Source: an uncultured Gammaproteobacteria bacterium (GTDB taxonomy: Bacteria > Pseudomonadota > Gammaproteobacteria > Steroidobacterales > Rariloculaceae). Taken from it: 64,000 bases of DNA. The DNA lies in contig CAWJDS010000017.1 of assembly GCA_963841645.1 (NCBI GenBank), positions 300,732 to 364,731 of the forward strand. The letters run 5' to 3'. Position 1 is the stretch's first letter, and every line of letters begins with the position of its first letter. A model generated the notes under the pieces. That model made no database searches and was not told the DNA's origin. It was given only the letters and a program-made list of their open reading frames with translations. Below are positions 44,614-58,311 of the stretch, one piece after another. The translations under genes were made by a program, and so were the position numbers.

Positions 44614-45176
44614 TCAGAGCGGGTCGGGAACGACGCGGTCCGAGCGGACTCGCCAGTGCTCGCCGTAGACAGACGAGTATTCGATCTCGAGCACGGCCTT
44701 CTCGGGGGCAGTCGCCGAGCCTTCCCCCGAGGACGGGCCATCCTCTACCGCGACGAACTGGAACGTGCGCAAGAGCTCGGCGCTCATCTGGGATGGGTCT
44801 ACGGAGCCGAGCATATTGCGTTGGATTGCTGCCGGCAGGGATCAACATGCCCGGCAGGACCCGGTCGCGGTAGACGTTGTTCGGAGGCACCTTGGCGTCT
44901 CCCAGCGACGCGTAGTACGCGTACGGATCGCCGTCGAACGCTTTGCCCTGATGGATGATTCGAATTCGGTCGATCAGCGCGGGGCCGAGCCCCACGTTGC
45001 GCAACGCGATATACGAGCCGTCGTTGTTCGTATTGAAAGCAATCAGTCAGATACGGCAGCACCGACGCCTTTGACTGCTCGCGCATCAGCGTCGTCTGGT
45101 AGAGCACGATGAATAGGCTCCCGAGACCCACGAGCATCGCGCTGATGCTCACGATGCGATCGGTATCCCATTTCAT
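44614..45176 (-). CDS. Hypothetical protein with N-terminal TM (two indels)
   Basis: Three frame segments join: MKWDTDRIVS...ASVLPYL / NVGLGPALI / LEIEYSSVYGEHW. Confidence 0.6.
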
Positions 45177-45230
45177 TCGTCATTGTCCGCACCGGCCCTG
45201 CCTCGACGGCGAAAGTCTACTCAAACCGCC

Positions 45231-45258
45231 CTTGAAAGGGGGAGCGCGACCTAACAAC
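45231..45258 (+). promoter_or_regulatory. Possible RpoH-type promoter of the hsp20 pair
   Basis: -35 CTTGAAA is good; the -10 match is weak. Confidence 0.3.
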
Positions 45259-45300
45259 AGGGTCCATCGTTTTCTTGGTCGGCACAAAGAGGAGGCCACC

Positions 45301-45726
45301 ATGGTCCTTAGAATGAGAGATCCGTTCGCGACGCTCCTGTCTGTGCAGCGCGCGATGGACAACGCGATGCAGCGCGATTGGTTCGGGCCGCTCACGAGTG
45401 GGCGCGGCGCGTATCCGCCCGTCAACGTGTTCGAGCGCGGCGAGGACTTCGAGATCGTCGCCGAGTTGCCCGGCGTGAAGAAGGAAGACCTCGACATCCA
45501 GGTCAAGGGCGCGACCGTCCGGATCCACGGCAAGAAGACCGTGGAGTACGCGGATGGCGCGAGCGCGCATCGGCGCGAGCGCGTCGGCGGAGAGTTCGAT
45601 CGAACGCTGACGCTACCGGCGCAGATCGACGCGGCGAAGGTCACGGCCGATTACCGCGACGGCGTGCTCACGCTCAAGCTGCCGCGCGCAGAGAGCGAGC
45701 GTCCGCGCTCGGTCACGATCAACTAG
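45301..45726 (+). CDS. Hsp20/alpha-crystallin small heat shock protein
   Basis: YPPVNV, AELPG, ERVGGEFDRTL, YRDGVLTLKLP; GAGGAGG RBS. Confidence 0.92.
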   Translation: MVLRMRDPFATLLSVQRAMDNAMQRDWFGPLTSGRGAYPPVNVFERGEDFEIVAELPGVKKEDLDIQVKGATVRIHGKKTVEYADGASAHRRERVGGEFDRTLTLPAQIDAAKVTADYRDGVLTLKLPRAESERPRSVTIN

Positions 45727-45754
45727 CGATTTGCAGGAACAGCGGAGACGAAAC

Positions 45755-46150
45755 ATGGCTACGCAAGAAGTTGCGCTGCAGGGCAAGAAAGAGCTCGCAC
45801 CGGCGCAAGAGCGAACCGAGGCCGGCAAGTTCTACAGCCCGTACACCGATATCTATGAGACGAACGACGCGGTCGTCGTTGCGATGGAGGTTCCGGGCGT
45901 CGAGCGCTCGGCGATCGACATCCGGCTCGACAAGGGCGTGCTGACCGTCACGGGCAACGTCGATCCGAAGCGGTACGAGGATGTGGCGCCGATCTATTCC
46001 GAGTACAACGTCGGCAACTTCGTCCGCAGCTTCACGCTGTCGACGAAGATCGCGAGCGACGAGATTTCGGCGAGCGTCGCCGACGGCGTGCTGACGGTGC
46101 GCCTGCCGAAGGCGAAGGAAGCGCTCGCGCGCCGCATCGAGATCAAGTAA
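45755..46150 (+). CDS. Hsp20 small heat shock protein (second)
   Basis: PYTDIYE, EVPGV, FVRSFTL, DGVLTVRLPK, RRIEI. Confidence 0.92.
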   Translation: MATQEVALQGKKELAPAQERTEAGKFYSPYTDIYETNDAVVVAMEVPGVERSAIDIRLDKGVLTVTGNVDPKRYEDVAPIYSEYNVGNFVRSFTLSTKIASDEISASVADGVLTVRLPKAKEALARRIEIK

Positions 46151-48340: not shown

Positions 48341-49021
48341 CTACTGCTGGTCGAGCATCTTCACGATCGCGCTGATCCGCTGCACGTTCGCGTAGCGGTC
48401 GACGATGATCAGCTGCCGGCAGCTCGTGCAGTTCTGCGCGCCGGGCTCGCAGGTGCCGCACATTGCCGATAAGTGGGCTGCCGGTGGCAGAAGGGGCCGG
48501 AGTATCGGCACCATCGACGACGCCTCCTTCTTCGACGTCGTCACGATGCGCGAGATCCACTCGTCCGCCGGGATGCTCGAGTCGTCGTTCTGCACGAGCG
48601 GCACTGCGAGCGAGCGAATCTCGAACAGCGGCACGATGTTCACGCGCCCTTCGATCGTCGTCGCCGCCATTCCGTTCGCGCGCAGGATCGCGAGCAGCGT
48701 CGGGTAGTTCACGTCCTCCGATTTGATGCTGCCGAGGTAGACCTGCTGGGCGGCTCGGCTGTCGATCAAGAATGTTTTCTTCGCGCTGCGCGCGACGCGG
48801 TCGACGAGCGACTCGAGCGACACGGTCGGCAGCGGCGGACCCGCCGGTATCGGCGGTGCACCGGAACTCTCGGGCGGCGGCCGCTGGGCCTCGCCAGGCG
48901 AGCCGCCTTGGGGATTCTGTTGAGCGGGCTGCGGTCGCTGCCCCTGGGCGTGCGCAGCCGCGGCGCCGAGGAAGAGCAGAACCACGAGTGCGAGCGAGCG
49001 GCGAAGACGTGTCGGATTCAT
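48341..49021 (-). CDS. Secreted stand-alone secretin N0-N1 domain protein with CxxC-CxxC insert
   Basis: Signal AHA; N0-like LVDRVARSAKKTFLIDSR...LLAILRANG...NIVP; N1-like DEWISRIV...MVPILRPLLP..AHL...LIIVDRYANVQRI..IVKMLD; stop follows immediately. Confidence 0.75.
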   Translation of the reverse strand: MNPTRLRRSLALVVLLFLGAAAAHAQGQRPQPAQQNPQGGSPGEAQRPPPESSGAPPIPAGPPLPTVSLESLVDRVARSAKKTFLIDSRAAQQVYLGSIKSEDVNYPTLLAILRANGMAATTIEGRVNIVPLFEIRSLAVPLVQNDDSSIPADEWISRIVTTSKKEASSMVPILRPLLPPAAHLSAMCGTCEPGAQNCTSCRQLIIVDRYANVQRISAIVKMLDQQ

Positions 49022-49046
49022 CCTGGTGCTCCGATGAGGTGATGAG

Positions 49047-50043
49047 TCATTGCAATGCGAAGTCGGGTCGGACGGACGTCGCGCGATTGTCCGCGCGCGC
49101 ATCGCGGAGGGCCGGCGTCCCCGCGGCGCGCGCGCGAGGTTCCGGATCGATGAGCGCAGCCGTGATCGCGTCGCCGATCTCGGCCGCGAGAGGCATGAGC
49201 TCCTCGGCCGGACGCTCGTACTCGGCGTGCCAAATCCGCTCGTCGGTCGCGGCGTCGAGCAAGTCTGCGGCGATGCGAATCTGGCCGTCGTGCTCGGCGA
49301 GCTCGCCGACGACGATACCGCGCACGCCGAGCTGCTCCCCGAGCTCGGACGCGTCGAGCTCGGTGGCGAGATAGGCGGCGGCGCGCGGCGCGCCGACGAC
49401 GTAGATCCCCGGCAGCGCGGCGAGCGCCGAGCCGATATCGCGTGACAACGAGACGGCGAGTACGCGCGTGGCACGCGGCTCGTCGGCTGGCGCGCCGAAT
49501 GGCAGCACGGCGATCGAGCTCGCGTCGACGACGCCGCCGCTCGGCAGGCGTGCGATCGGATAGGCCGCAGCCGCGGCCGCGATGCTCGCGCTGCGCTCGG
49601 CAGACGCCGCCGGGTCGAGCGGGGGCACGGTCTGCTCGAGCGCGACCGGATTTGTCGCAGGTGCATGCGCCGGCGAGCGCGGCGTCGTGCACGAGCCAAA
49701 GCGCGGCGGCTACCGTGAGGGCCGCGGCTGCGAGCGCCGCGCCCCAGCCGAATCGCCGCAGCGTGCGGAGCGGGAGCGCGCTTTGGACCGCCGCGGGGTC
49801 GCGTTTCGCGAGCGCCGCTGCCTCGTCGAAAGCCCAACGCAGCTCCGGATCGTCGGCGAGGCTCCGCGCGATTTCGGCGGCGGCGTCGCAGCGCTCGAGC
49901 TCTTGCTCGTGCTCTGGCGCGCGGTCGAGCCACGCGGAGAGGCGCGCGGCGGTGACCTCGTCGGATCGCCGCGACTCGAGCGCGACGAACCACTCGGCCG
50001 CAGTCACGGGCTCGCGCTCGGGCTTGCGCGTCTCGCCACTCAT
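49047..50043 (-). CDS. Anti-sigma-like protein: FecR N-terminal (DUF4880-like) domain, TM, TolB_N/FlgO-like domain (indel near 49660)
   Basis: AAEWFVALE...LSAWLDRAPEH; TM WGAALAAAALTVAAALWL; SIAVLPF...LGEQLGVRGIVVG...IRIAADLLDAATDERIW. Confidence 0.75.
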
Positions 50044-50600
50044 TCGGGTTTCCCTCCGAGCCGTCGTTGACAGACCTCGAGCGCGTGCTGCATCTCGCGC
50101 TCCGCGGTTCGGCGGCTGATGCCGAGCCGCTTCGCGATCTCGTCGTAGCCGAGCTCGGCGGAGGCGCGCAGCAGGAAAACCTGCCGACAGCGCGGCTTGA
50201 GGTCGAGCAGCGTGCGCTTCACGATCTCGACCCCTTGCTCCAGCGCGACGACTCGATCGGGCGCGGGCAGGTTCGCGGGAAGGTCCGCGAGCTGCTCGTC
50301 GTCGCCGTGCGGACCGCGCGCGCGCCGCTGCCGGAAACGGTCGTACGCGAGATTGGTCGCGACCTTGAAGATGAGAGCGCGCACGCGTCCGACTTCGATG
50401 TTCTCGATCTGCATGAGACGGAGATAAGTCTCCTGCACCAAGTCCTCGGCCTCGTCGCGCCGCGAGAGCAAGTCCGTCAGGTAGCGGAGCAGAGGAGTGC
50501 GAAAGCGCTCGAAGGTTCGCGCGACGAGCTCGTGCCGTCGCCCGACTAGGTCCATCGACTCGGGTTGATCGGTCATCCGGTCGGCGGGGTCGCTGCCCAT
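50040..50600 (-). CDS. ECF sigma factor, FecI-like
   Basis: LLRYL, AEDLVQETYLRL, IFKVATNLAYD, RCRQVFLL, YDEIAKRLGISRRT; ATGA coupling to the anti-sigma gene. Confidence 0.92.
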   Translation of the reverse strand: MGSDPADRMTDQPESMDLVGRRHELVARTFERFRTPLLRYLTDLLSRRDEAEDLVQETYLRLMQIENIEVGRVRALIFKVATNLAYDRFRQRRARGPHGDDEQLADLPANLPAPDRVVALEQGVEIVKRTLLDLKPRCRQVFLLRASAELGYDEIAKRLGISRRTAEREMQHALEVCQRRLGGKPE

Positions 50601-50817
50601 CGTCCTGTGTTTGGCTACCACGCGGTTAATACGTTCGGGCGGCCGGCGCCCGCCAACTTTCTCGCCAGCGCCGGCCGTCTCGGGGCCGGGCGGGCTCGCG
50701 CAGCCTAGCCGCGAGGTCCAAGCCGGACAAGGAAACGCAGCCGCTCGGTCGGTAAGAACGGCGCGCCTCGGCGAGAGTTGGTATCGTGGCGCCGTCGTTC
50801 GGCAGCGCAGGCCAGCT

Positions 50818-51738
50818 TTGTCATCGGCTCATTCGCATCGGCACCGCCCCGTCCTCGGCGTTTTCCTCAAGCTCACGTCCGTGGTCCTGCTCTCGAGCAT
50901 GGCCGCGTGCGTGAAGTACCTCGGCAGCGCGATCCCGAGCGGCGAGACGATCTTCGTGCGCGGCGTGATCTCCGTCGCCGTGCTAGCGCTCATCGCGTGG
51001 CGAGTGGAGGGGCTCGGACTGCTGAAGACGAGCAATCTGCGCTCGCACGCGCTGCGCTCGCTGTGCGGCACCGCGAGCATGTTCTGCTGGTTCTACGCGC
51101 TCACGCTGATTCCGCTGGCGGAGTTCTGGGCGATCGCGTTCACCTCGCCGCTGTTCCTCACGCTGCTCGCGATGCTGTTCCTCGGCGAGCGGATCCATCG
51201 CTATCGCTGGACGGCGCTCGCGATCGGGTTCGTCGGCGTGCTCGTCATCGTCGGACCGCACCTGAGCTTCGGCGCGGGCTCGCTTGGAGTAGGGATGGCG
51301 CTCGCCGCGGCCGTGTTCTCGGCGTTCGCGGTGATGTTTCTGCGCAGCATGAGCGGCAGCGGCGGCGAGCACCCGATCACGATCACCTTCTATTTCTCGG
51401 TGACGACGATGGTGTGCGCCGCGTTCACGGCCGTCGCGGGCTGGCCGATGCCGACGCCGGAGCAATGGTTGTTCATCGTGCTCGCGGGCGTGTTCGGCGT
51501 GTTCGGCCAGTTGTTGATGACTTACTCGTACCGCTTCGCCGAAGCGTCGACGATCGCGCCGATCGACTACGTGAACCTGCTGATCGCGATCGTCTACGGC
51601 TGGTTCTTCTTCGACGAGCTGCCGGATCGCGCGACCTGGATCGGTGCGCCGCTCGTGATCGCGGCCGGCGCGATCATCCTCTGGCGCGAATACAGGCTCA
51701 TGCTGCCGCGCGAGCCCGCCGTCGCTCCGAACGTCTGA
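50818..51738 (+). CDS. DMT/EamA-family transporter
   Basis: Ten TMs; ETIFVRG, AFTSPLF, FLGERI, AEASTIAPIDY. Confidence 0.88.
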   Translation: MSSAHSHRHRPVLGVFLKLTSVVLLSSMAACVKYLGSAIPSGETIFVRGVISVAVLALIAWRVEGLGLLKTSNLRSHALRSLCGTASMFCWFYALTLIPLAEFWAIAFTSPLFLTLLAMLFLGERIHRYRWTALAIGFVGVLVIVGPHLSFGAGSLGVGMALAAAVFSAFAVMFLRSMSGSGGEHPITITFYFSVTTMVCAAFTAVAGWPMPTPEQWLFIVLAGVFGVFGQLLMTYSYRFAEASTIAPIDYVNLLIAIVYGWFFFDELPDRATWIGAPLVIAAGAIILWREYRLMLPREPAVAPNV

Positions 51739-51835
51739 GCGCGCCGCGCGCGCGCTGGGCAGTGGCGGTCCTCGGCGCCCGTCGGCCGCGCGCGTCGCTT
51801 GCCCGCTCGCGGCCGGCTCGACTAGAGTGCGCGCC

Positions 51836-51922
51836 ATGTCGCACGTACGCCGCTCGTTCTTTACCGGCCCCGGCCTGCTCCAGGCCTCGGGGGTTTCCGG
51901 TCGCGCGTCGATTTCTCGCTGA
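51836..51922 (+). CDS. Putative leader peptide MSHVRRSFFTGPGLLQASGVSGRASISR
   Basis: Short ORF with tandem Phe codons (TTC TTT, 51857-51862) upstream of a PheRS paralogue. Confidence 0.5.
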   Translation: MSHVRRSFFTGPGLLQASGVSGRASISR

Positions 51923-52032
51923 TCTCTCCGCCGCCGTTCTCTCCCTGACAGCCTCAGCAGGACCGGGGTGACCGCCGTCCGCTGCGCTCGCGCAGCGCCC
52001 GCAACCCAACGTTCTGCACGAGAGGTGTGTCA
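51862..52032 (+). promoter_or_regulatory. Putative attenuator with mutually exclusive stems
   Basis: 51868-51879 pairs with 51956-51968. Alternatively 51946-51969 pairs with 52004-52032, covering the SD GAGG and the start codon. Confidence 0.45.
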
Positions 52033-53155
52033 TGTCAGTTCGACTGCTCGATACCGAGGCTTATGGACGCGCGCTCGCGCTGCGCGATCTCACCGACACG
52101 GCGCTCGGCCCGCACGCAATGCAACTGCTCGTGCGCGACGCCGTCGCGGCGCTCGCCGCGCGCTGGCGTTGCGCGGTCGTCGTGCACCGCGCGCCGCCTG
52201 TCGTCACGATCGCCGAAAACTACGACTCGCTCGGCTATCCGGCCGACGGCGCGGCGCGTGATGCGCGCTACACGCGGTACGTGTCGCCCGATCGGTTGCT
52301 CCGCACGCAAACGTCCGCGATGGTCCCGCCCGCGCTCCGGATGCTCGCGCCGGCCCGCTACGACGACGTGTTGCTCGTGTGCCCGGGGCTCACTTACCGG
52401 CGCGACGCGATCGATCGGCTGCACGTCGGCGAGCCGCACCAGCTCGATCTCTGGCGCGTCGCGCGTCGCCCACTCGGACGCGCGGCGCTCGAGGAGATGA
52501 TCGACGTCGCGGCGCACGCGATGTTGCCCGGCGCGCCGCTCAGGCTTTCGCCTGCGTGCCACCCGTACACGGTCGACGGGCTCGAGGTGCACGGCGGAGA
52601 TCGACGGACGCACGGTCGAGATCCTCGAGTGCGGTCTCGCAGCGCCGCGGATCCTCCACGACGCCGGCTGGCGATCCGGCGAGCATCACGGGCTCGCGAT
52701 GGGCATCGGGCTCGACCGGATGCTGATGCTGCGCAAAGGCGTTGCCGATATTCGCGAGCTGCGCTCGGCCGATCCGAGAGTCGCTGCGCAGATGCTCGAC
52801 CTCGAGCCGTATCGGCCGGTGTCGTCGCAGCCCGCGATGCGCCGCGATCTCTCGATCGCGGTGCCCGCCGAGACGGCGCCGGAGGAGCTCGGCGACCGCG
52901 CGCGTCAGGCGCTCGGCGATCGCTGCGCGAGCGTCGAGGCGATCGAGGTGCTCAACGAGACCCCGTACGCGGACTTGTCGCCCGTCGCGCGCGAGCGGCT
53001 CGGGATCGCTGCGGGCCAGAAGAACGTGCTGCTGCGCGTCGTGATCCGCGATCTCGAGCGTACTCTGACCGCCGCCGAGGCGAATTCGCTGCGCGACGAG
53101 ATCTATGCGGCGCTGCACGCGCGGCAGCGCGCACACGTGGGCGCCGAACGCGTGA
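52032..53155 (+). CDS. Monomeric PheS-related ligase: class II aaRS catalytic domain plus FDX-ACB anticodon-binding domain (indels near 52590 and 53120)
   Basis: ENYDSLG, LLRTQTS, YRRDAIDRLH..HQLD, HPYT, EILECGL, GLAMGIGLDR, P.MRRDLS, RDLERTLT..EAN. Confidence 0.8.
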
Positions 53156-53203
53156 GTGCTAAGCTTCGACGGCTCCTCCCAACGAACCACAAAGGAGTCC
53201 CGC

Positions 53204-53715
53204 ATGCTGCATCACATTTCGATCGGCGTCGCCGACGTCGCGCGCGTCCGCCCAGTTCTACGATCGCGTCCTGCAAGAGCTCGGCTTCAAGCGCGTCATG
53301 GAGGTTCTGCCATACGGTATCGCGCTATGGCGACAAGCAGCCCGCGTTCTGGATCGGGTTGCCGCACGATCAGCGAGCGGCGTCGACGGGCAACGGCGTG
53401 CACGTCGCGTTCAACGCGACGAGCGAAGAGATGATCCGCGCGTTCCATCGCGCGGCGCTCGAGGCGGGCGGTACCGACGACGGCGCGCCCGGACCGCGGC
53501 CCGACTATGGCCCCGACTATTTCGGCGCGTTCGTGCGCGACCTCGACGGCAACAAGATCGAAGCCGTGCTCGTGCGACTGCCCGCGGCGGCGAAGAAGAA
53601 GGCCGCGAAAAAGGCACGCAAGAAGGCAAGCGCCAAGAAGGCGAAAAGCGCGAAGAGGGCAGGCGGCGCGAAGAAGAAGGCCGCTCGCGGGAAGAAACGC
53701 GGCAAGCGCGCTTGA
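53204..53715 (+). CDS. VOC/glyoxalase-family protein with Lys/Ala-rich tail (two indels)
   Basis: MLHHISIGVAD, HVAFNA, ALEAGGTDDGAPGPRPDY..YFGAFVRDLDGNKIEAV, then AAAKKKAAKK... Confidence 0.85.
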
Positions 53716-54718: not shown

Positions 54719-55019
54719 TGTTCTGATTTTCACGATTTCCCCCGGTAGCAAGAATGGTCCCCGCGCGAATCATGGCCGATCGTCGATTGGCCTGAAAGCC
54801 CCACACGGATGCGCTTCGTACGTCGATGGTCGCGGCTCGTGCGCCGCGGCGTCGGTAGCGTCAGACAGGCGTCTGCCGGTATCCTGTCATGCTGCTCGAC
54901 GGCTTATCGCGGGGGCGTTTCCGATGAACTCGACGATGTGGAAATCGCGTTGCGAACGCTCGCGCGCGACAGAGCCTACGCGCTCCTATAGGTAGGTCGC
55001 CTTGAGCACGCGCGCCAGG

Positions 55020-55745
55020 ATGGCGACTCGTCGATTTCGCGAACGCGGTTGGCCCGCGTTGCGCGTTACCGCGTACGCGCTGCTCGTCGCGCTGCTCTCG
55101 ATCGGCGCAGGCGCGCGCGCCGCGAACCAGCCGCTGCCCATCGTGAAAGTCTCGGCGCCGAGCGGCTCGCACGGGCCGCTGCTACTCGTGCTGAGCGGCG
55201 ACGGTGACTGGACCGGATTCATGAAAGAGCTATCCGAGATGGCGGCGGCGCATGGCGCGCCGGTACTAGGTCTGAAGATGCGCACGTACCTCTCGACGCC
55301 GCATACGCCGGAGCAAGTGGCGGTCGACCTCGAGCCGGTCGTGCGCGGACAGCTGAAGGAGTGGGATCGAAACGACATCGTGATCATCGGCTACTCGCGC
55401 GGCGCCGACACGGCACCGTTCATCGTGAATCGCTGGCCGAGCGACCTGCGCGCGCGCGTGCGATCGCTCGGCCTCATCGGCTTGAGCGACAACGCGAGCT
55501 TCGAGTTCCATTGGGAAGACCTCGCGATCGACGTGTCGAGGCCCACGGACATACCGACGCGCCCGGAGCTCGAGAAGCTCGCGGGCCTGTCGATCCTCTG
55601 CTTCCGCGGCGAGGACGAGCAGAAATCGGCGTGCGCCAGACCGGTCGGCGCCATGCGGATGATCGTGCACGACGGCAAGCATCGCGCGAAGGCCGGCGAC
55701 GGCACCAGCGAGCTCGTGCTGCGAGCCCTCGGCCTCGTTCCCTGA
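55020..55745 (+). CDS. acvB: AcvB/VirJ-family aminoacyl-phosphatidylglycerol hydrolase
   Basis: LSGDGDW, IIGYSRGAD, CFRGEDE..SAC, GKH; adjacent to mprF. Confidence 0.85.
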   Translation: MATRRFRERGWPALRVTAYALLVALLSIGAGARAANQPLPIVKVSAPSGSHGPLLLVLSGDGDWTGFMKELSEMAAAHGAPVLGLKMRTYLSTPHTPEQVAVDLEPVVRGQLKEWDRNDIVIIGYSRGADTAPFIVNRWPSDLRARVRSLGLIGLSDNASFEFHWEDLAIDVSRPTDIPTRPELEKLAGLSILCFRGEDEQKSACARPVGAMRMIVHDGKHRAKAGDGTSELVLRALGLVP

Positions 55746-55749
55746 GTCG

Positions 55750-58311
55750 ATGACGTCGACAAGCGGCGAAAGGCTCCGTTGGCTCAAGCCGCTGCTTGCG
55801 CTCGTGGTGTTCGCTGGCGCCGCGTTCGTTCTTTATAGAGTCCTCGCCCACATCCGCATACGCGAGGTCGTGGCGAGCTTCCGCGCGATCCCCGCGCGTT
55901 CGATCGGCTTAGCGCTGCTCCTGACGTGTGTGAGCTATTGGCTGCTCGGGTTCTACGACGTGCTCGCGCTGCGCTACGCGCGCAAACAGGTCGCGTACAC
56001 GCGTGCACTGTTCACGGCGTTCATCGCGTACGCGTTCGGCCACAACTTCACACTCGCGGGAGTCACCGGCGCCGCCGTGCGGCTGCGCCTGTACTCCGCG
56101 CGCGGGCTCACGGCGATCGACGTCGCGACGGTGTCGGGGTTCTGCTCCCTGACCTCGATGCTCGGTCTCGGCGCGCTCGCGGGCGTCTCGCTGTTACTCG
56201 AGCCGAACGCGACCGCCGTCGCGCTGCACTTCCGGCACGCCGAAGCGTTGCTCATCGGCGCGGTGCTGGTCCTCGTCGTGCTGAGCTATCTCTACTGGGC
56301 GTCGTTCGTGCGCACGCCGCTCGAGATCCGCGGCTGGGCGCTGCGCCCGCCGGGGGCGCTGATTGGGCTCGCGCAACCATTGCTCGGCGCGCTCGACTTC
56401 GCGGTCGCTGGCGCGGTCGTCTGGGTGCTCTTGCCGCCGTCCGCGCACATCGGCTATTTCGCGTTCGCGGGGCTGTACGCCGCCGCCATCACGGTCGGCC
56501 TTCTAAGCCACGTTCCGGGCGGGCTCGGCGTTTTCGAGGCGATGCTCCTACTCATGCTGCCCGAGGTGCCGACGGAGGAGCTGCTCGGCTCGCTGCTCGC
56601 ATTCCGCGCGGTGTATTACCTCGCGCCGCTCGTGGTCGGCGGGCTCGCGTTCCTCATCGAGGAGCTGCGCGCACAGAGCTCGCGCTGGGCACGCGCGCAA
56701 GCGGTCGCGTCGGCGTACATCGCGCCCGTCGTCCCGCAGGTCGCTGCAACGCTCACGTTCATCGCCGGGGCCGTGCTGCTCCTCTCCGGCGCGACGCCCG
56801 GCGTCGACGCGCGCATCGAGGTGCTCCATCGGATGCTGCCGCTCGCGATTCTCGAGGTATCTCACCTCGTCGGCAGCCTCGTCGGGCTAGGGCTGATCGT
56901 GCTCGCGTCGTCGCTGCGGCGGCGCGTGAGCGCCGCCTATCACATCGCACTCGCGTTGATCGCGGCCGGTATCGCGGCGTCGTTGCTCAAGGGCATCGAC
57001 TTCGAGGAGGCCGTGCTGCTCGCGATCGCCGGAGCGGTGCTCGTGCTCGGCCGCAGCTCGTTTTATCGGCCCTCTTCGATCCTTGCCGAGCGCTACACGC
57101 CGGCCTGGGTCGTGAGCATCGTCGGCGTGATCGCTGCGACCGTCTGGGTCGGCTTCTTCGCGTATCGCAACGTCGAGTACTCGAGCGACCTTTGGTGGAC
57201 GTTCGCGTTCAACGCCGATGCGCCGCGCATGCTGCGCGCCGCGCTGATCGTGGGCGTAGCCGCCGCCGCTCTACTGCTCCTGAACTTGCTGCGCCCCGCG
57301 CGTCCCGAGCCCGTGACCGCGAGCGCGGACGATCTCGCGAAGGCGCGCGGCGCGGTCGAGCGCTCCGAGCAGTCGCTCGCGAACGCGGCACTGATGGGCG
57401 ACAAACGCCTGCTCTTCAGCGACGACCAGAACGCGTTCGTGATGTATCAGGTCTCCGGGCGCAGCTGGATCGCGCTCGGCGACCCGGTCGGCGAGCTACG
57501 CTACAGCGAAGAGCTCGTCTGGCGCTTCCGCGAGCTTTCGGACCACCACGCGGGCTGGACGGTGTTCTATCAGGCGAGCCGCACGCGGCTGCCGCAGTAC
57601 ATCGATCTCGGGCTCGCCGCGTTCAAGCTCGGCGAAGAAGCGCACGTTCCGCTCCAAGAGTTCTCGCTCGACGGCAGCGCGCGCGCGGAGCTGCGTCAGG
57701 ACCACCGCCGCGCGGTTCGCGACGGCGCTACGTTCGAGATCGTGCCGGCGGAGCGTGTGCCGCGAATGCTGCCGGAGCTGCGCAAGATCTCGGACGCGTG
57801 GCTCGCCGACAAAGCCACCGCGGAGAAGCACTTCTCCGTCGGCGCGTTCGATCCCGCGTATCTCGGTCAGTTCGACTTCGCGCTCGTGCGTCGAATGGGC
57901 GTGCTCGTCGCGTTCGCGAATCTTTGGGAGACGCGGACGAAGCGCGAGCTGTCGGTCGATCTGATGCGATTCGGTCCGGACGCACCGCGCAGCGCGATGG
58001 ACTTCCTGTTCGTCGAGCTGATGCTCTGGGGCCGCGAGCAGGGCTACGAGTGGTTCAACCTAGGCATGGCCCCGCTGGCCGGCCTCGAGCAACATCCGCT
58101 CGCGCCGGCGTGGCATCGCGTCGGCAACTTCGTGTTCCGTTACGGCGAGCACTTCTACAACTTCGAGGGCTTGCGCCGCTACAAGACGAAGTTTCGGCCG
58201 GTATGGGAGCCGCGCTATCTCGTCGGTCCGGGCGGCATCGCACTACCGCGGATCTTGCTCGACGTGTCGGCGCTGATCTCAGGTGGGATCAAGGAATTGT
58301 TCGCCAAGTAG
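55750..58311 (+). CDS. mprF: Bifunctional aminoacyl-phosphatidylglycerol flippase/synthetase
   Basis: VPGGLGVFE, LMGDK, ALGDPVG, KLGEEA, SVDLMR, NLGMAPL, FYNFEGLRRYK.KF.PVWEPRYL. Confidence 0.95.
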   Translation: MTSTSGERLRWLKPLLALVVFAGAAFVLYRVLAHIRIREVVASFRAIPARSIGLALLLTCVSYWLLGFYDVLALRYARKQVAYTRALFTAFIAYAFGHNFTLAGVTGAAVRLRLYSARGLTAIDVATVSGFCSLTSMLGLGALAGVSLLLEPNATAVALHFRHAEALLIGAVLVLVVLSYLYWASFVRTPLEIRGWALRPPGALIGLAQPLLGALDFAVAGAVVWVLLPPSAHIGYFAFAGLYAAAITVGLLSHVPGGLGVFEAMLLLMLPEVPTEELLGSLLAFRAVYYLAPLVVGGLAFLIEELRAQSSRWARAQAVASAYIAPVVPQVAATLTFIAGAVLLLSGATPGVDARIEVLHRMLPLAILEVSHLVGSLVGLGLIVLASSLRRRVSAAYHIALALIAAGIAASLLKGIDFEEAVLLAIAGAVLVLGRSSFYRPSSILAERYTPAWVVSIVGVIAATVWVGFFAYRNVEYSSDLWWTFAFNADAPRMLRAALIVGVAAAALLLLNLLRPARPEPVTASADDLAKARGAVERSEQSLANAALMGDKRLLFSDDQNAFVMYQVSGRSWIALGDPVGELRYSEELVWRFRELSDHHAGWTVFYQASRTRLPQYIDLGLAAFKLGEEAHVPLQEFSLDGSARAELRQDHRRAVRDGATFEIVPAERVPRMLPELRKISDAWLADKATAEKHFSVGAFDPAYLGQFDFALVRRMGVLVAFANLWETRTKRELSVDLMRFGPDAPRSAMDFLFVELMLWGREQGYEWFNLGMAPLAGLEQHPLAPAWHRVGNFVFRYGEHFYNFEGLRRYKTKFRPVWEPRYLVGPGGIALPRILLDVSALISGGIKELFAK

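What the first reader, a model, noticed from the sequence alone, without database searches (positions are those of the whole stretch)
51836..53155. Mitochondrial-type monomeric PheRS paralogue with a remodelled amino-acid pocket, behind a Phe-Phe leader peptide and attenuator-like stems
Seen: a roughly 370-aa gene joining a PheS catalytic core (LLRTQTS, YRRDAIDRLH..HQLD, GLAMGIGLDR) to an FDX-ACB anticodon-binding domain, with no pheT nearby. The canonical Phe-clamping F-P-F is H-P-Y here. A 28-codon uORF with tandem Phe codons ends 110 nt upstream, followed by mutually exclusive stems, one of which buries the SD and AUG. Known: this domain layout is that of organellar PheRS; pheM-type leaders sense charged tRNA-Phe; auxiliary drug-resistant synthetases such as Streptomyces TrpRS1 use similar leaders. 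From memory it resembles the NCBI 'PheS-related mystery ligase SrmL' family of unknown function (unverified). Inference: an inducible back-up or inhibitor-resistant PheRS, or a ligase for a non-canonical substrate, switched on when Phe-tRNA falls.
Basis: partly seen in the sequence, partly recalled or inferred. Interest (0 to 1): 0.82.

Follow-up and report, generated by a model that had tools for sequence, protein, structure and literature searches.

The report
Spare tRNA-Phe ligase lacking phenylalanine
The gene encodes a second, single-chain phenylalanine-tRNA ligase that contains no phenylalanine itself and lies behind a tiny upstream reading frame with a conserved phenylalanine codon, so it looks like an emergency enzyme the cell can still make, and switches on, when charged tRNA-Phe runs out.

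Summary
Window 52032-53155(+) encodes a member of NCBIfam NF051887, 'PheS-related mystery ligase SrmL': a PheS catalytic core fused to an FDX-ACB anticodon-binding domain. Its best fold match is human mitochondrial PheRS. The window copy carries two 1-nt insertions (52593, 53121/22). These are probably assembly errors, because the same assembly also splits its canonical pheS and pheT.

Two new results support the 'back-up PheRS' reading:
- **SrmL proteins are almost free of Phe.** 99 of 109 unique full-length homologues have none (0.03% Phe, against 3.06% in neighbouring proteins). The 'remodelled' H-P-Y pocket is part of this removal of Phe from the whole protein.
- **The upstream ORF is conserved across phyla.** In 85 of 85 leaders with a recognisable -10 box and start codon, the start is in frame with the conserved TTT Phe codon, at nine spacings that are all multiples of 3. 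It is followed by two mutually exclusive pairings that each show covariation. The leader occurs once per genome and always in front of srmL.

Not upheld: the tandem Phe-Phe (near clade only), a specific SD-burying stem, and a terminator. How stalling changes expression is unresolved. There is no biochemistry, and I found no paper on SrmL.

The parts
51799..51828 (+). Promoter-like -35 (TTGCCC, 51799-804), 18-nt spacer, -10 (TAGAGT, 51823-28). The -10 ends 7 nt before the uORF ATG, so the uORF may be leaderless.
   Evidence: Sequence. A TAnnnT box 5-9 nt before an in-frame ATG/GTG is present in 85 of 119 unique leaders and again in Actinomycetota, Planctomycetota and Dormiibacterota loci. The transcription start is not shown: RNA-library contigs of relatives run across this region.
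51836..51922 (+). Leader ORF, 28 codons plus TGA (MSHVRRSFFTGPGLLQASGVSGRASISR). The sensing Phe codons are TTC 51857-59 and the conserved TTT 51860-62, and there is a conserved Pro codon CCC three codons later.
51863..51901 (+). Local hairpin directly after the Phe codon. Outer pairs are ACCGG/CCGGU. Inner pairs are CCCCGGCCUG (51868-77) with CAGGCC..GGGG (51881-92). Loop is CUC.
   Evidence: Covariation count on A4: 77.8% of cells paired, 4 of 10 pairs with changes on both sides.
51868..51879 (+). Region 1, the shared 5' strand (CCCCGGCCUGCU). It pairs either locally or with region 3. A ribosome held at TTT would cover its first bases (inference).
51950..51968 (+). Region 3, the 3' strand of the long-range helix (AGCCUC AGCAGG A CCGGGG).
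   Evidence: RNAalifold. On A4: 86.8% paired, 6 of 15 pairs with changes on both sides. On A5, which spans phyla: 19 of 24 pairs with changes on both sides against a shuffle mean of 13.4, with 0 of 500 shuffles as high.
51980..51997 (+). Conserved GC-rich hairpin CGCUGCG-CUCG-CGCAGCG. No conserved U-run follows it.
   Evidence: 7 of 7 pairs with changes on both sides on A5.
51856..52001 (+). Extent of the leader RNA match to covariance model R1.
   Evidence: This is the only match in the 5.2-Mb genome, E 1.7e-20.
52022..52027 (+). Shine-Dalgarno sequence (GAGGUG) of srmL, 4 nt before the ATG.
   Evidence: Nearly invariant AGGUG in alignment A3.
52032..53155 (+). srmL coding sequence, 373 aa once two 1-nt insertions are discounted. 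Catalytic core to about 52800, FDX-ACB domain about 52820-53130. It has no Phe codon in frame.
52593..52593 (+). Extra G (CACGGCGG where relatives have CAC-GCGG). First frame break.
   Evidence: Absent in 5 of 5 relatives and in 2 of 2 covering contigs, X2 and X8.
53121..53122 (+). One extra base (CACGCGCGG where relatives have CACGCG-GG). Second frame break.
   Evidence: Absent in 4 of 4 relatives and in 3 of 3 covering contigs, X1, X2 and X3.

Best explanation
srmL encodes a single-chain auxiliary phenylalanyl-tRNA ligase of the SrmL family. It consists of a class II PheS core plus a tRNA-Phe anticodon-binding domain, with no beta subunit and no editing domain, and it has been purged of phenylalanine. 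It can therefore be translated when Phe-tRNA-Phe is missing, a condition under which the normal PheS/PheT cannot be renewed (the PheS pieces of this genome carry 19 Phe in 290 residues). Expression is set by a leader of about 200 nt. A short ORF, probably leaderless, carries one conserved Phe codon just before a structured element whose 5' strand can pair either locally or with a distant segment. When charged tRNA-Phe is scarce, the ribosome waits at that codon, covers the start of the shared strand, and changes the fold, and srmL output rises. What is shown: family, fold, Phe depletion, conservation and reading frame of the uORF, the two competing helices, and the exclusive link between leader and srmL. 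What is inferred: that the enzyme charges tRNA-Phe with Phe, that stalling occurs, the direction of the response (ON at low charge, argued from the Phe-free product), and the output step (translation, termination or stability), which remains unresolved.
For: Family and fold:
-.
- Intact homologues score 470-504 bits on NF051887 against a cut-off of 300.
- The AlphaFold2 model has pLDDT 82.3. Its top Foldseek hit is human mitochondrial PheRS 3cmq, E 9.8e-21 over 378 columns.
- The class II motif 2 and motif 3 arginines (YRRD, GLDR) are invariant in 14 of 14 sequences.

Extra copy:
- Canonical pheS and pheT are present in this genome.
- One pheS above cut-off plus an SrmL-like match is found in 5 of 5 other srmL genomes.

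Phe-free:
- 99 of 109 unique intact SrmL ORFs have 0 Phe, 7 have 1, 2 have 2 and 1 has 3.
- Phe is 0.03% against 3.06% in 497 neighbouring proteins. Only 1 of 291 neighbours of 300 aa or more has none.
- There are 14 Phe in 30,810 residues of the 120 database hits.
- The same genome's PheS pieces have 19 Phe in 290 aa.

Leader:
- GATTT-N3-7-CCCC is present in 111 of 156 loci, against a background of 0.0004 per 250 nt.
- In 85 of 85 leaders with a -10 box and start codon, the start is in frame with TTT, at spacings of 15-45 nt that are all multiples of 3. Upstream ATGs number 129 in frame against 19 and 13 in the other two frames.
- uORFs are 19-32 aa, and the peptide is conserved only as (R)-F-x-x-P.
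- The same pattern, sometimes with the synonymous codon TTC, occurs in Gaiellales, other Actinomycetota, Planctomycetota and Dormiibacterota loci.

Switch: two exclusive pairings, both with changes on both sides of the pair.

Specific to srmL:
- Model R1 hits once in the own genome.
- It hits once in each of 4 of 4 large genomes, each time next to srmL.
- Among 41 related genomes it hits only the two that carry srmL, plus one weak hit at E 0.07.
- It hits 61 of 80 genome loci at E <= 1 and 62 of 82 sources at E <= 0.01.
Against: - There is no enzymology for any family member, and I found no paper.
- The residues that hold the substrate differ from canonical PheRS: HQxE becomes HQxD, HTS becomes QTS, and FPF becomes HPY. 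Phe specificity is therefore assumed, not shown.
- The output step is not resolved. Pairing of the SD with the uORF segment is no better than for shuffled segments (0.347 against 0.293; observed above control in 35 of 79; p 0.28). Masking a stalled ribosome raises predicted SD accessibility only from 0.35 to 0.41. No conserved U-run follows the hairpin.
- One reading of the helices would give termination on stalling, which is the wrong direction.
- The synonymous sites of TTT-ACC-GGC-CCC are nearly invariant. An RNA-level constraint therefore exists, and the Phe codon might owe part of its conservation to it.
- RNA-library contigs of relatives extend upstream of the predicted -10 box, so the leaderless start is unproven.
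- The selection of leaders required TTT by regular expression, so 'TTT in 79 of 79' is circular.
Confidence: 0.6

Rival explanations
1. SrmL does not make Phe-tRNA-Phe. It loads tRNA-Phe, or another acceptor, with a different amino acid (Tyr, a hydroxylated or otherwise modified aromatic), or it has a non-translational role as PoxA, GluQRS or HisZ do.
For: Pocket and amino-group contacts are altered: H-P-Y, HQxD, QTS, GLAMG. There is no editing domain. NCBI's curators left the function open ('mystery ligase'). [quoted passage not shown]
Against: All Phe positions are replaced, not only those in the pocket, which general Phe avoidance explains. Human cytosolic PheRS has Asn/Tyr at the two pocket positions and still uses Phe. 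The FDX-ACB domain is kept. No dedicated tRNA lies in the window and no partner gene is conserved across phyla. A Phe-codon sensor fits a product that restores Phe-tRNA.
Confidence: 0.17
2. The leader is a ligand-, protein- or tRNA-binding structured RNA (a riboswitch-like or T-box-like element, or an operator bound by SrmL itself), and the short ORF is incidental.
For: There is nucleotide-level invariance at synonymous sites of (CGA)UUUACCGGCCCC. Two conserved alternative folds are present. After F-x-x-P the peptide changes with 1-nt indels while the RNA is kept (L157-L161).
Against: The start codon is in frame with TTT in 85 of 85 leaders at nine spacings. Phe is kept through synonymous TTC in L040 and L091. 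There is no Rfam match, T-box included, at E <= 1.
Confidence: 0.12
3. The physiological trigger is not Phe starvation but loss of the housekeeping PheRS to an inhibitor or a Phe analogue from competitors or plants. SrmL would be an inducible, insensitive replacement, like the indolmycin-induced TrpRS1 of Streptomyces.
For: It is found in soil bacteria with large genomes, such as Myxococcota, Steroidobacteraceae and Longimicrobiaceae. A Phe-specific ligase is of little use if Phe itself is absent. The two residues that hydrogen-bond the meta-OH of m-Tyr in human mitochondrial PheRS (Gln124, Glu159) align with Ile/Val and Asp in SrmL (alignment, numbering offset worked out by me).
Against: No biosynthetic cluster or resistance context is conserved next to the gene. 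Nothing has been tested. This is a variant of the best explanation rather than a contradiction of it.
Confidence: 0.3
4. In this particular genome srmL is a dead gene. The two frame breaks are real.
For: There are two 1-nt insertions in 1.1 kb. The only other copy in the genus (G017) is also split into two frames.
Against: The same assembly splits its essential pheS into 2 or more frames and pheT into 5 pieces, as well as the glyoxalase gene next door. Completeness is 72.8% at 36 contigs. Both halves keep full-strength family scores. All near-identical contigs that cover the sites are intact.
Confidence: 0.1

Closest known systems
NCBIfam NF051887, 'PheS-related mystery ligase SrmL'
   Same: The window protein is a member. 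The two halves score 231.4 and 249.8 bits and cover profile positions 1-348 of 349. Intact relatives score 470-504 bits.
   Different: The family name states no function. I do not know whether NCBI's family text mentions any of them.
Human mitochondrial PheRS (FARS2; PDB 3cmq, 3tup)
   Same: The same two-domain single chain: PheS-type catalytic module plus FDX-ACB (B8-like) anticodon-binding domain. It is the best full-length fold match. It also lacks an editing domain.
   Different: Sequence identity is about 20%. TIGR00469 scores 97-119 bits against a cut-off of 258, and the catalytic part scores no worse on bacterial PheS (TIGR00468, 102-116 bits). Specific kinship is therefore not shown. 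Mitochondrial PheRS keeps F-P-F (alignment) and is the organelle's only PheRS. PMC3275996 (passages read) calls it the only known monomeric class II core.
Streptomyces coelicolor auxiliary TrpRS1 with a leader-peptide attenuator (Vecchione and Sello 2010; Kitabatake et al. 2002)
   Same: A second synthetase for one amino acid, induced through a cognate-codon leader peptide when the main enzyme fails.
   Different: I saw these papers only as entries in the reference list of PMC4787780. The 2010 paper is not held. Details are recalled, and I do not know whether TrpRS1 avoids Trp. Here no terminator is evident and the leader ORF appears leaderless.
E. coli pheST attenuator (pheM leader peptide) and pheA leader (pheL)
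   Same: Phe codons in a short upstream ORF sense Phe-tRNA-Phe (recalled knowledge).
   Different: Those leaders carry 5-7 Phe codons and an intrinsic terminator. Here there is one conserved Phe codon (0-2 more nearby in 79 leaders), no conserved U-run, and no Rfam leader match.
Leaderless polycysteine short ORFs of mycobacteria acting as Cys-responsive attenuators (bioRxiv 10.1101/834739)
   Same: A leaderless short ORF at the 5' end of an operon mRNA whose cognate codons tune downstream expression (title and start of abstract seen in the listing).
   Different: A different amino acid, different taxa and a different downstream gene. Here the leaderless start is only inferred from -10 box spacing.
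Stress-proof duplicated synthetases, e.g. the cyanobacterial ThrRS T2 active at low zinc (PMC4787780)
   Same: A duplicate aaRS adapted to work when a resource the main enzyme needs is scarce (abstract and passages read).
   Different: There the scarce resource is a metal cofactor. Here the protein avoids its own substrate amino acid.

Membership tests
NCBIfam NF051887 (SrmL) | HMM score at or above the curated cut-off (300 bits) over the whole profile | tested here: met
   The halves score 231.4 bits (profile 1-172) and 249.8 bits (176-348). Each is below 300 alone because of the frame break, and together they total 481. Relatives 73-78% identical score 470-504 bits.
NCBIfam NF051887 (SrmL) | PheS-type catalytic core fused to an FDX-ACB domain in one chain | tested here: met
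   Pfam PF01409 and PF03147. Two-domain model.
Bacterial PheRS alpha subunit (TIGR00468) | Score at or above the cut-off of 237.45 bits | tested here: not met
   44.2 and 41.2 bits for the window halves. 102-116 bits for intact relatives.
Bacterial PheRS alpha subunit (TIGR00468) | Adjacent pheT and the F-P-F Phe-clamping motif | tested here: not met
   No pheT is within the neighbourhood. The motif is H-P-Y. The genome's real pheST is on contig C5.
Mitochondrial PheRS (TIGR00469) | Score at or above the cut-off of 258.35 bits | tested here: not met
   46.6 and 65.7 bits. 97-119 bits for intact relatives.
Mitochondrial PheRS (TIGR00469) | Single-chain CAM plus B8-like domain architecture | tested here: met
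   Foldseek top hits are 3cmq, 5mgh and 3tup over about 378 columns.
Active class II aminoacyl-tRNA ligase | Motif 2 and motif 3 arginines and the ATP-binding core are kept | tested here: met
   R94, R95, D96 (YRRD) and G195, G197, D199, R200 (GxGLDR) are invariant in 14 of 14 sequences. They are present in the window. Activity itself was not tested.
Ribosome-mediated leader-peptide attenuator | Conserved short upstream ORF with cognate codon(s), with its reading frame kept | tested here: met
   85 of 85 starts are in frame. ATGs number 129 in frame against 19 and 13 in the other frames. uORFs are 19-32 aa. Other phyla are covered.
Ribosome-mediated leader-peptide attenuator | Mutually exclusive RNA pairings overlapping the stall site | tested here: met
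   Local hairpin against long-range helix, sharing 51868-79.
Ribosome-mediated leader-peptide attenuator | Defined output element: an intrinsic terminator with a U-run, or an SD-sequestering stem | tested here: inconclusive
   No conserved U-run follows the 51980-97 hairpin. SD pairing is not above the shuffled control, and accessibility shifts only from 0.35 to 0.41.
T-box riboswitch / any Rfam family | Covariance-model match | tested here: not met
   0 matches at E <= 1 in window 51000-53600.
Leaderless short-ORF attenuator | Transcript begins at the start codon of the short ORF | tested here: inconclusive
   A -10-like TAnnnT lies 5-9 nt before the start in 85 of 119 leaders. RNA-library contigs of relatives nevertheless cover the promoter region, and contigs cannot show 5' ends.

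The most novel reading that the evidence does not exclude
SrmL is not a faithful PheRS but a programmed stand-in loader. When Phe-tRNA-Phe collapses, the Phe-free enzyme is induced and charges tRNA-Phe with another aromatic amino acid, Tyr for example. It lacks an editing domain and has His/Tyr where PheRS has the Phe clamp. Ribosomes stalled at Phe codons are released at the price of regulated mistranslation.
Probability: 0.12. Interest if true: 0.92.

Novelty: new variant of a known kind. Interest (0 to 1): 0.8.

Why it matters
A curated family with no known function gets a concrete, testable job. If PheRS activity is lost, a cell cannot remake PheS/PheT because both are full of Phe codons. 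A ligase with no Phe, controlled by a Phe-codon sensor, would break that deadlock. I found no described synthetase purged of its own amino acid (searches found none). This would add a design principle to auxiliary synthetases, namely cognate-free 'bootstrap' enzymes, and it can be looked for in paralogues of other synthetases.

The finding also adds a leader RNA/uORF that is absent from Rfam and shared by at least six phyla. It shows that the single-chain PheRS layout, described as unique to mitochondria (PMC3275996), exists in at least 510 loci among one-genome-per-species bacterial and archaeal genomes.

Tried and rejected
- **Tandem Phe-Phe as the conserved feature.** Only 12 of 156 loci have an ATG uORF with FF. 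This was replaced by the single conserved Phe codon.
- **T-box or any Rfam family.** None found.
- **Dedicated tRNA near the gene.** No tRNA in the 64-kb window.
- **Conserved partner genes.** The largest neighbour cluster is in 24 of 74 loci and is confined mainly to Steroidobacteraceae-type loci (response regulator-cyclase at -1, then PrpD- and citrate-synthase-like genes, named by eye). Nothing is shared across phyla.
- **uORF 5' segment as a specific anti-SD.**
  - Duplex z-score mean is -0.79.
  - The SD partner is predicted there in roughly 13-15 of 25 representatives.
  - This is not above shuffled controls: 0.347 against 0.293, 35 of 79, p 0.28.
  - Accessibility rises only from 0.35 to 0.41, up in 40 and down in 7 of 79.
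  - I therefore do not claim an SD-burying stem.
- **Intrinsic terminator.** A U-run after an extended stem is seen only in a few sequences, L110 and L112 for example.
- **Rho loading site.** The middle of the leader is C-rich (C 36%, G 24%; C>G in 70 of 79), which is too mild to conclude.
- **Alignment of the 3' half across all clades.** It gave no consensus structure.
- **tRNA-Phe mimicry and extended codon-anticodon pairing.** Considered by eye. No supporting pairing was found.
- **Specific kinship with mitochondrial PheRS.** Profile scores are no higher than to bacterial PheS. No tree was built, because I had no mitochondrial sequences from a tool.
- **Literature.** SrmL/'PheS-related' (the listed papers use SRML in unrelated senses), PheRS paralogue/monomeric, PheRS+FDX-ACB (1 unrelated paper), cognate-depleted synthetases and Phe-free PheRS gave nothing on this family. 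Supplements were closed and were not consulted.
- **Sequencing runs.** No run holds half of the sampled words (best 0.34). I laid four of them. The RNA-library contigs (X3: 51780-52074, 52280-52536, 52630-52832, 52908-53180; X8: 51791-52011, 52493-53038) show only that near-identical sequence is present in two soil metatranscriptome libraries. They do not show transcription, a 5' end or a level.
Full report
**What is there.** Window 52032-53155(+) is a PheRS-like gene read in three frames.
- The first frame (P0001) carries LLRTQTS, YRRDAIDRLHVGEPHQLD and CHPYT. The second (P0002) carries GLAMGIGLDR and the C-terminal domain.
- Pfam finds tRNA-synt_2d on both pieces and FDX-ACB on the second.
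- NCBIfam NF051887, 'PheS-related mystery ligase SrmL', matches at 231.4 and 249.8 bits over profile positions 1-172 and 176-348. Canonical pheS and mitochondrial pheS models score only 41-66 bits.
- Intact relatives score 470-504 bits against the cut-off of 300.
- An AlphaFold2 model of the 78%-identical P0009 (pLDDT 82.3) is most similar over its full length to human mitochondrial PheRS (3cmq, E 9.8e-21, 378 columns, about 20% identity). Bacterial PheS alpha chains match the catalytic half only.

**The frame breaks.**
- Against close relatives the window has one extra G at 52593 (5 of 5 relatives lack it) and one extra base at 53121/22 (4 of 4 lack it).
- Near-identical contigs from other runs that cover the sites also lack them: X2 and X8 at 52593; X1, X2 and X3 at 53121/22.
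- With both discounted the protein is 373 aa and stops at 53153-55.
- The same assembly (5.2 Mb, 36 contigs, 72.8% complete) also splits its canonical pheS into at least two frames and pheT into five pieces. It splits the glyoxalase-family gene just downstream as well.
- I therefore read the breaks as assembly errors (about 0.9), not as gene decay.

**Distribution and context.**
- The gene is an extra copy. This genome has pheS-pheT on contig C5. Five of five other srmL-bearing genomes (Sorangium, Archangium, Minicystis, Povalibacter and a Gemmatimonadales MAG) have one pheS above cut-off plus the SrmL-like match.
- It is patchy. Among 41 genomes (this one plus 40 relatives, including the unpublished G039), only G017 scores over the cut-off, and G000 has the two halves.
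- A pattern scan of one genome per species found 510 loci that encode a relative. The best 80 come from Steroidobacteraceae and other Gammaproteobacteria, Myxococcota, Longimicrobiaceae/Gemmatimonadota, Gaiellales and other Actinomycetota, Dormiibacterota, Planctomycetota and a Melainabacteria MAG.
- No neighbouring gene is conserved across phyla, and there is no tRNA gene in the window.

**The protein has almost no phenylalanine.**
- Of 109 unique intact full-length SrmL ORFs in the fetched loci, 99 have no Phe, 7 have one, 2 have two and 1 has three.
- Phe is 0.03% of residues, against 3.06% in 497 neighbouring proteins of the same loci. Only 1 of 291 of those neighbours of 300 aa or more lacks Phe. 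Other residues, including Tyr (2.8%) and Trp (1.3%), are ordinary.
- The 120 database hits hold 14 Phe in 30,810 residues. The window copy has none.
- The PheS pieces of the same genome have 19 Phe in 290 residues, including YFPFTE and GYAFGMG.
- Every classic PheS Phe is replaced in SrmL: NFxxL becomes NYDxL, FHQ becomes PHQ, FPF becomes HPY, GFAFG becomes GLAMG, and RDxxF becomes RDLSI.
- The 'remodelled pocket' is therefore one instance of removal of Phe from the whole protein.
- It is also not diagnostic of a new substrate. In human cytosolic PheRS the two clamp positions are Asn410 and Tyr412 and the enzyme still recognises Phe (PMC3275996, passages read).
- At 3.06% Phe, the chance that a 345-aa protein has none is about 2e-5. 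Here the absence holds across phyla.

**The leader ORF is real and conserved.**
- The srmL start at 52032 is conserved (ATG in 31 of 32 close loci).
- Upstream, the nearest clade keeps the whole 28-codon ORF with FFTGPGL.
- More distant loci lose the tandem Phe (12 of 156 have FF) but keep a core. TTTACCGGCCC is exact in 60 of 156 (background 0.0018 per 250 nt). GATTT-N3-7-CCCC is present in 111 of 156 (background 0.0004). Most of the remaining loci have TTT/TTC-N-CCCC variants.
- Among 119 unique leaders, 85 have a -10-like TAnnnT 5-9 nt before an ATG/GTG. In 85 of 85 that start is in frame with the TTT, at spacings of 15, 18, 24, 27, 30, 33, 36, 39 and 45 nt. ATGs within 90 nt upstream number 129 in frame against 19 and 13 in the other frames.
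- The ORFs are 19-32 codons and end 91-153 nt before srmL. The shared peptide is only (R)-F-x-x-P. 47 of 79 have one or two more Phe in the five preceding codons.
- Loci from Gaiellales, other Actinomycetota, Planctomycetota and Dormiibacterota show the same short ORF with F-x-x-P and a -10-like box. Two of them (L040, L091) use TTC.
- TTT makes up 7.8% of Phe codons, and CGA (the usual preceding codon, 62 of 79) makes up 6.1% of Arg codons in neighbouring genes. Note that my selection of leaders required TTT, so its count in that set is circular.
- The near invariance of synonymous sites shows that RNA-level constraint acts on the same bases.

**An RNA switch follows the Phe codon.**
- The segment CCCCGGCCUGYU (window 51868-79) can pair locally with 51881-92, forming a hairpin directly 3' of the Phe codon. 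It can also pair with a distant segment (51956-68, extended by CAGGCS with SGCCUG). A GC-rich hairpin (51980-97) follows.
- On 48 sequences, the long-range helix is 86.8% paired with 6 of 15 pairs changed on both sides. The local hairpin is 77.8% paired with 4 of 10.
- On a model-fitted alignment spanning phyla, 19 of 24 pairs show changes on both sides (shuffle mean 13.4, 0 of 500 shuffles as high). The covariation score is 0.246, against 0.02-0.08 for slid partners. That alignment leans towards the model's structure.
- A covariance model of the element (R1) gives these results:
  - It finds exactly one copy in the own genome, at window 51856-52001.
  - It finds one copy in each of 4 of 4 large genomes, each time beside srmL.
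  - Among 41 related genomes it finds only the two with srmL, plus one weak hit at E 0.07.
  - It hits 61 of 80 genome loci upstream of srmL at E <= 1, 39 of them at E <= 0.01.
  - It hits 62 of 82 further sources at E <= 0.01.
- Rfam has nothing here.

**How it most likely works.**
- Shown: a Phe-free PheRS-like ligase with intact class II catalytic motifs and a tRNA-Phe-type anticodon domain; a translated-looking leader ORF whose one constant codon is Phe; two exclusive folds starting 3-8 nt after that codon; strict linkage of leader and gene.
- Inferred: when Phe-tRNA-Phe is short, the ribosome waits at TTT, covers the first bases of the shared strand, prevents both pairings, and raises srmL output. 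The product, which needs no Phe-tRNA to be made, then restores charging.
- The direction (ON at low charge) rests on the logic of a Phe-free product, not on the structures.
- The output step is open.
  - The window's minimum-energy fold pairs the uORF's 5' codons with the SD.
  - Across 79 leaders this pairing is no better than with shuffled segments. Masking a stalled ribosome opens the SD only slightly.
  - No U-run is conserved after the hairpin.
  - The C-rich middle leaves Rho-dependent control possible.
- Whether the trigger in nature is starvation, an inhibitor or a Phe analogue is unknown. The two residues that bind the meta-hydroxyl of m-Tyr in mitochondrial PheRS align with Ile/Val and Asp in SrmL. 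This is only a hint.

**Comparison with what is known.**
- It is a member of NF051887. It is not a member of the bacterial PheS or mitochondrial PheRS equivalogs by score, although it has the mitochondrial architecture.
- In regulation it works like leader-peptide attenuators (pheM, pheL, the TrpRS1 leader). In its apparent leaderless start it resembles the mycobacterial Cys short ORFs (10.1101/834739, listing seen). It lacks their defined terminator.
- As a stress-proof duplicate it resembles the low-zinc ThrRS T2 (PMC4787780).
- I found no paper on SrmL or on a synthetase depleted of its own amino acid. The library does not hold most subscription journals, and supplements were closed.

**Verdict.**
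- Two features lift this from a 'mystery ligase' to a specific, testable model of a bootstrap PheRS: cognate-amino-acid avoidance, and a leaderless-type Phe-codon uORF with an RNA switch that is conserved across phyla.
- Confidence in the model as a whole is 0.6. Confidence is about 0.98 in family membership, about 0.95 in the conserved leader, and about 0.75 in translation-based Phe sensing.

Noticed in passing
window 53206-53640 (+): The gene just downstream is a glyoxalase/VOC-family protein (Pfam PF00903 on the second part). Its start (MLHHISIGVADV...) and its remainder lie in different frames. This is another sign of 1-nt indels in this assembly.
   Followed up: partly
G000 contig C5:559918-563151: The canonical pheS and pheT of the same genome are each split over several frames: pheS into 3 matched pieces in 2 or more frames, pheT into 5 pieces. 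With completeness of 72.8% at only 36 contigs, this points to uncorrected indel errors across the genome.
   Followed up: partly
window 55002-58311 (+): A VirJ-family gene (PF06057) is followed by an MprF-like phosphatidylglycerol lysyltransferase (PF09924 and PF03706). MprF-type enzymes use aminoacyl-tRNA to aminoacylate lipids (recalled). They lie 1.8 kb from srmL, but this is not seen in other srmL loci, so it is probably coincidence.
   Followed up: partly
window 50854-51738 (+): An EamA/DMT-family transporter (PF00892) ends 98 nt before the uORF. Its C-terminal coding end is kept upstream of the leader in the nearest relatives L105-L113 but not in more distant clades. Some DMT proteins export aromatic amino acids (recalled). 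Not examined.
   Followed up: no
window 45109-46150 (+): Two adjacent small ORFs cluster with a small heat-shock-protein-like gene (named by eye, not scanned). That gene lies 3-5 genes upstream of srmL in 12 Steroidobacteraceae-type loci. This is a remnant of shared gene order and hints at the window's lineage.
   Followed up: no
window 51908-51914 (+): The nearest clade lacks the CGA codon before TTT but carries a second UCGAUUU about 45 nt downstream, in a different frame of the uORF. The same heptamer is the most conserved string of the leader in other clades. Unexplained.
   Followed up: no
window 51780-52074: Contigs from two soil RNA libraries (X3 record 16, X8 record 24) cover the leader and continue upstream of the predicted -10 box. 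This could be read-through from the transporter gene, DNA carry-over, or a start site further upstream.
   Followed up: partly
window 49018-50621 (-): An ECF sigma factor (PF04542, PF08281, PF07638) has an overlapping downstream ORF that looks like its anti-sigma partner (by eye). The region 48.3-50 kb is full of long overlapping ORFs on both strands, which is typical of about 70% GC and not evidence of genes.
   Followed up: no
L122, L125, L044, L038 and other Steroidobacteraceae-type loci: In these leaders the triplet in the loop of the local hairpin is an in-frame TTC (G-L-F-Q), and the five codons before the conserved TTT hold two more Phe (F-A-F-R-F). This clade therefore has up to four Phe codons in the uORF, closer to classical Phe leaders.
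   Followed up: partly
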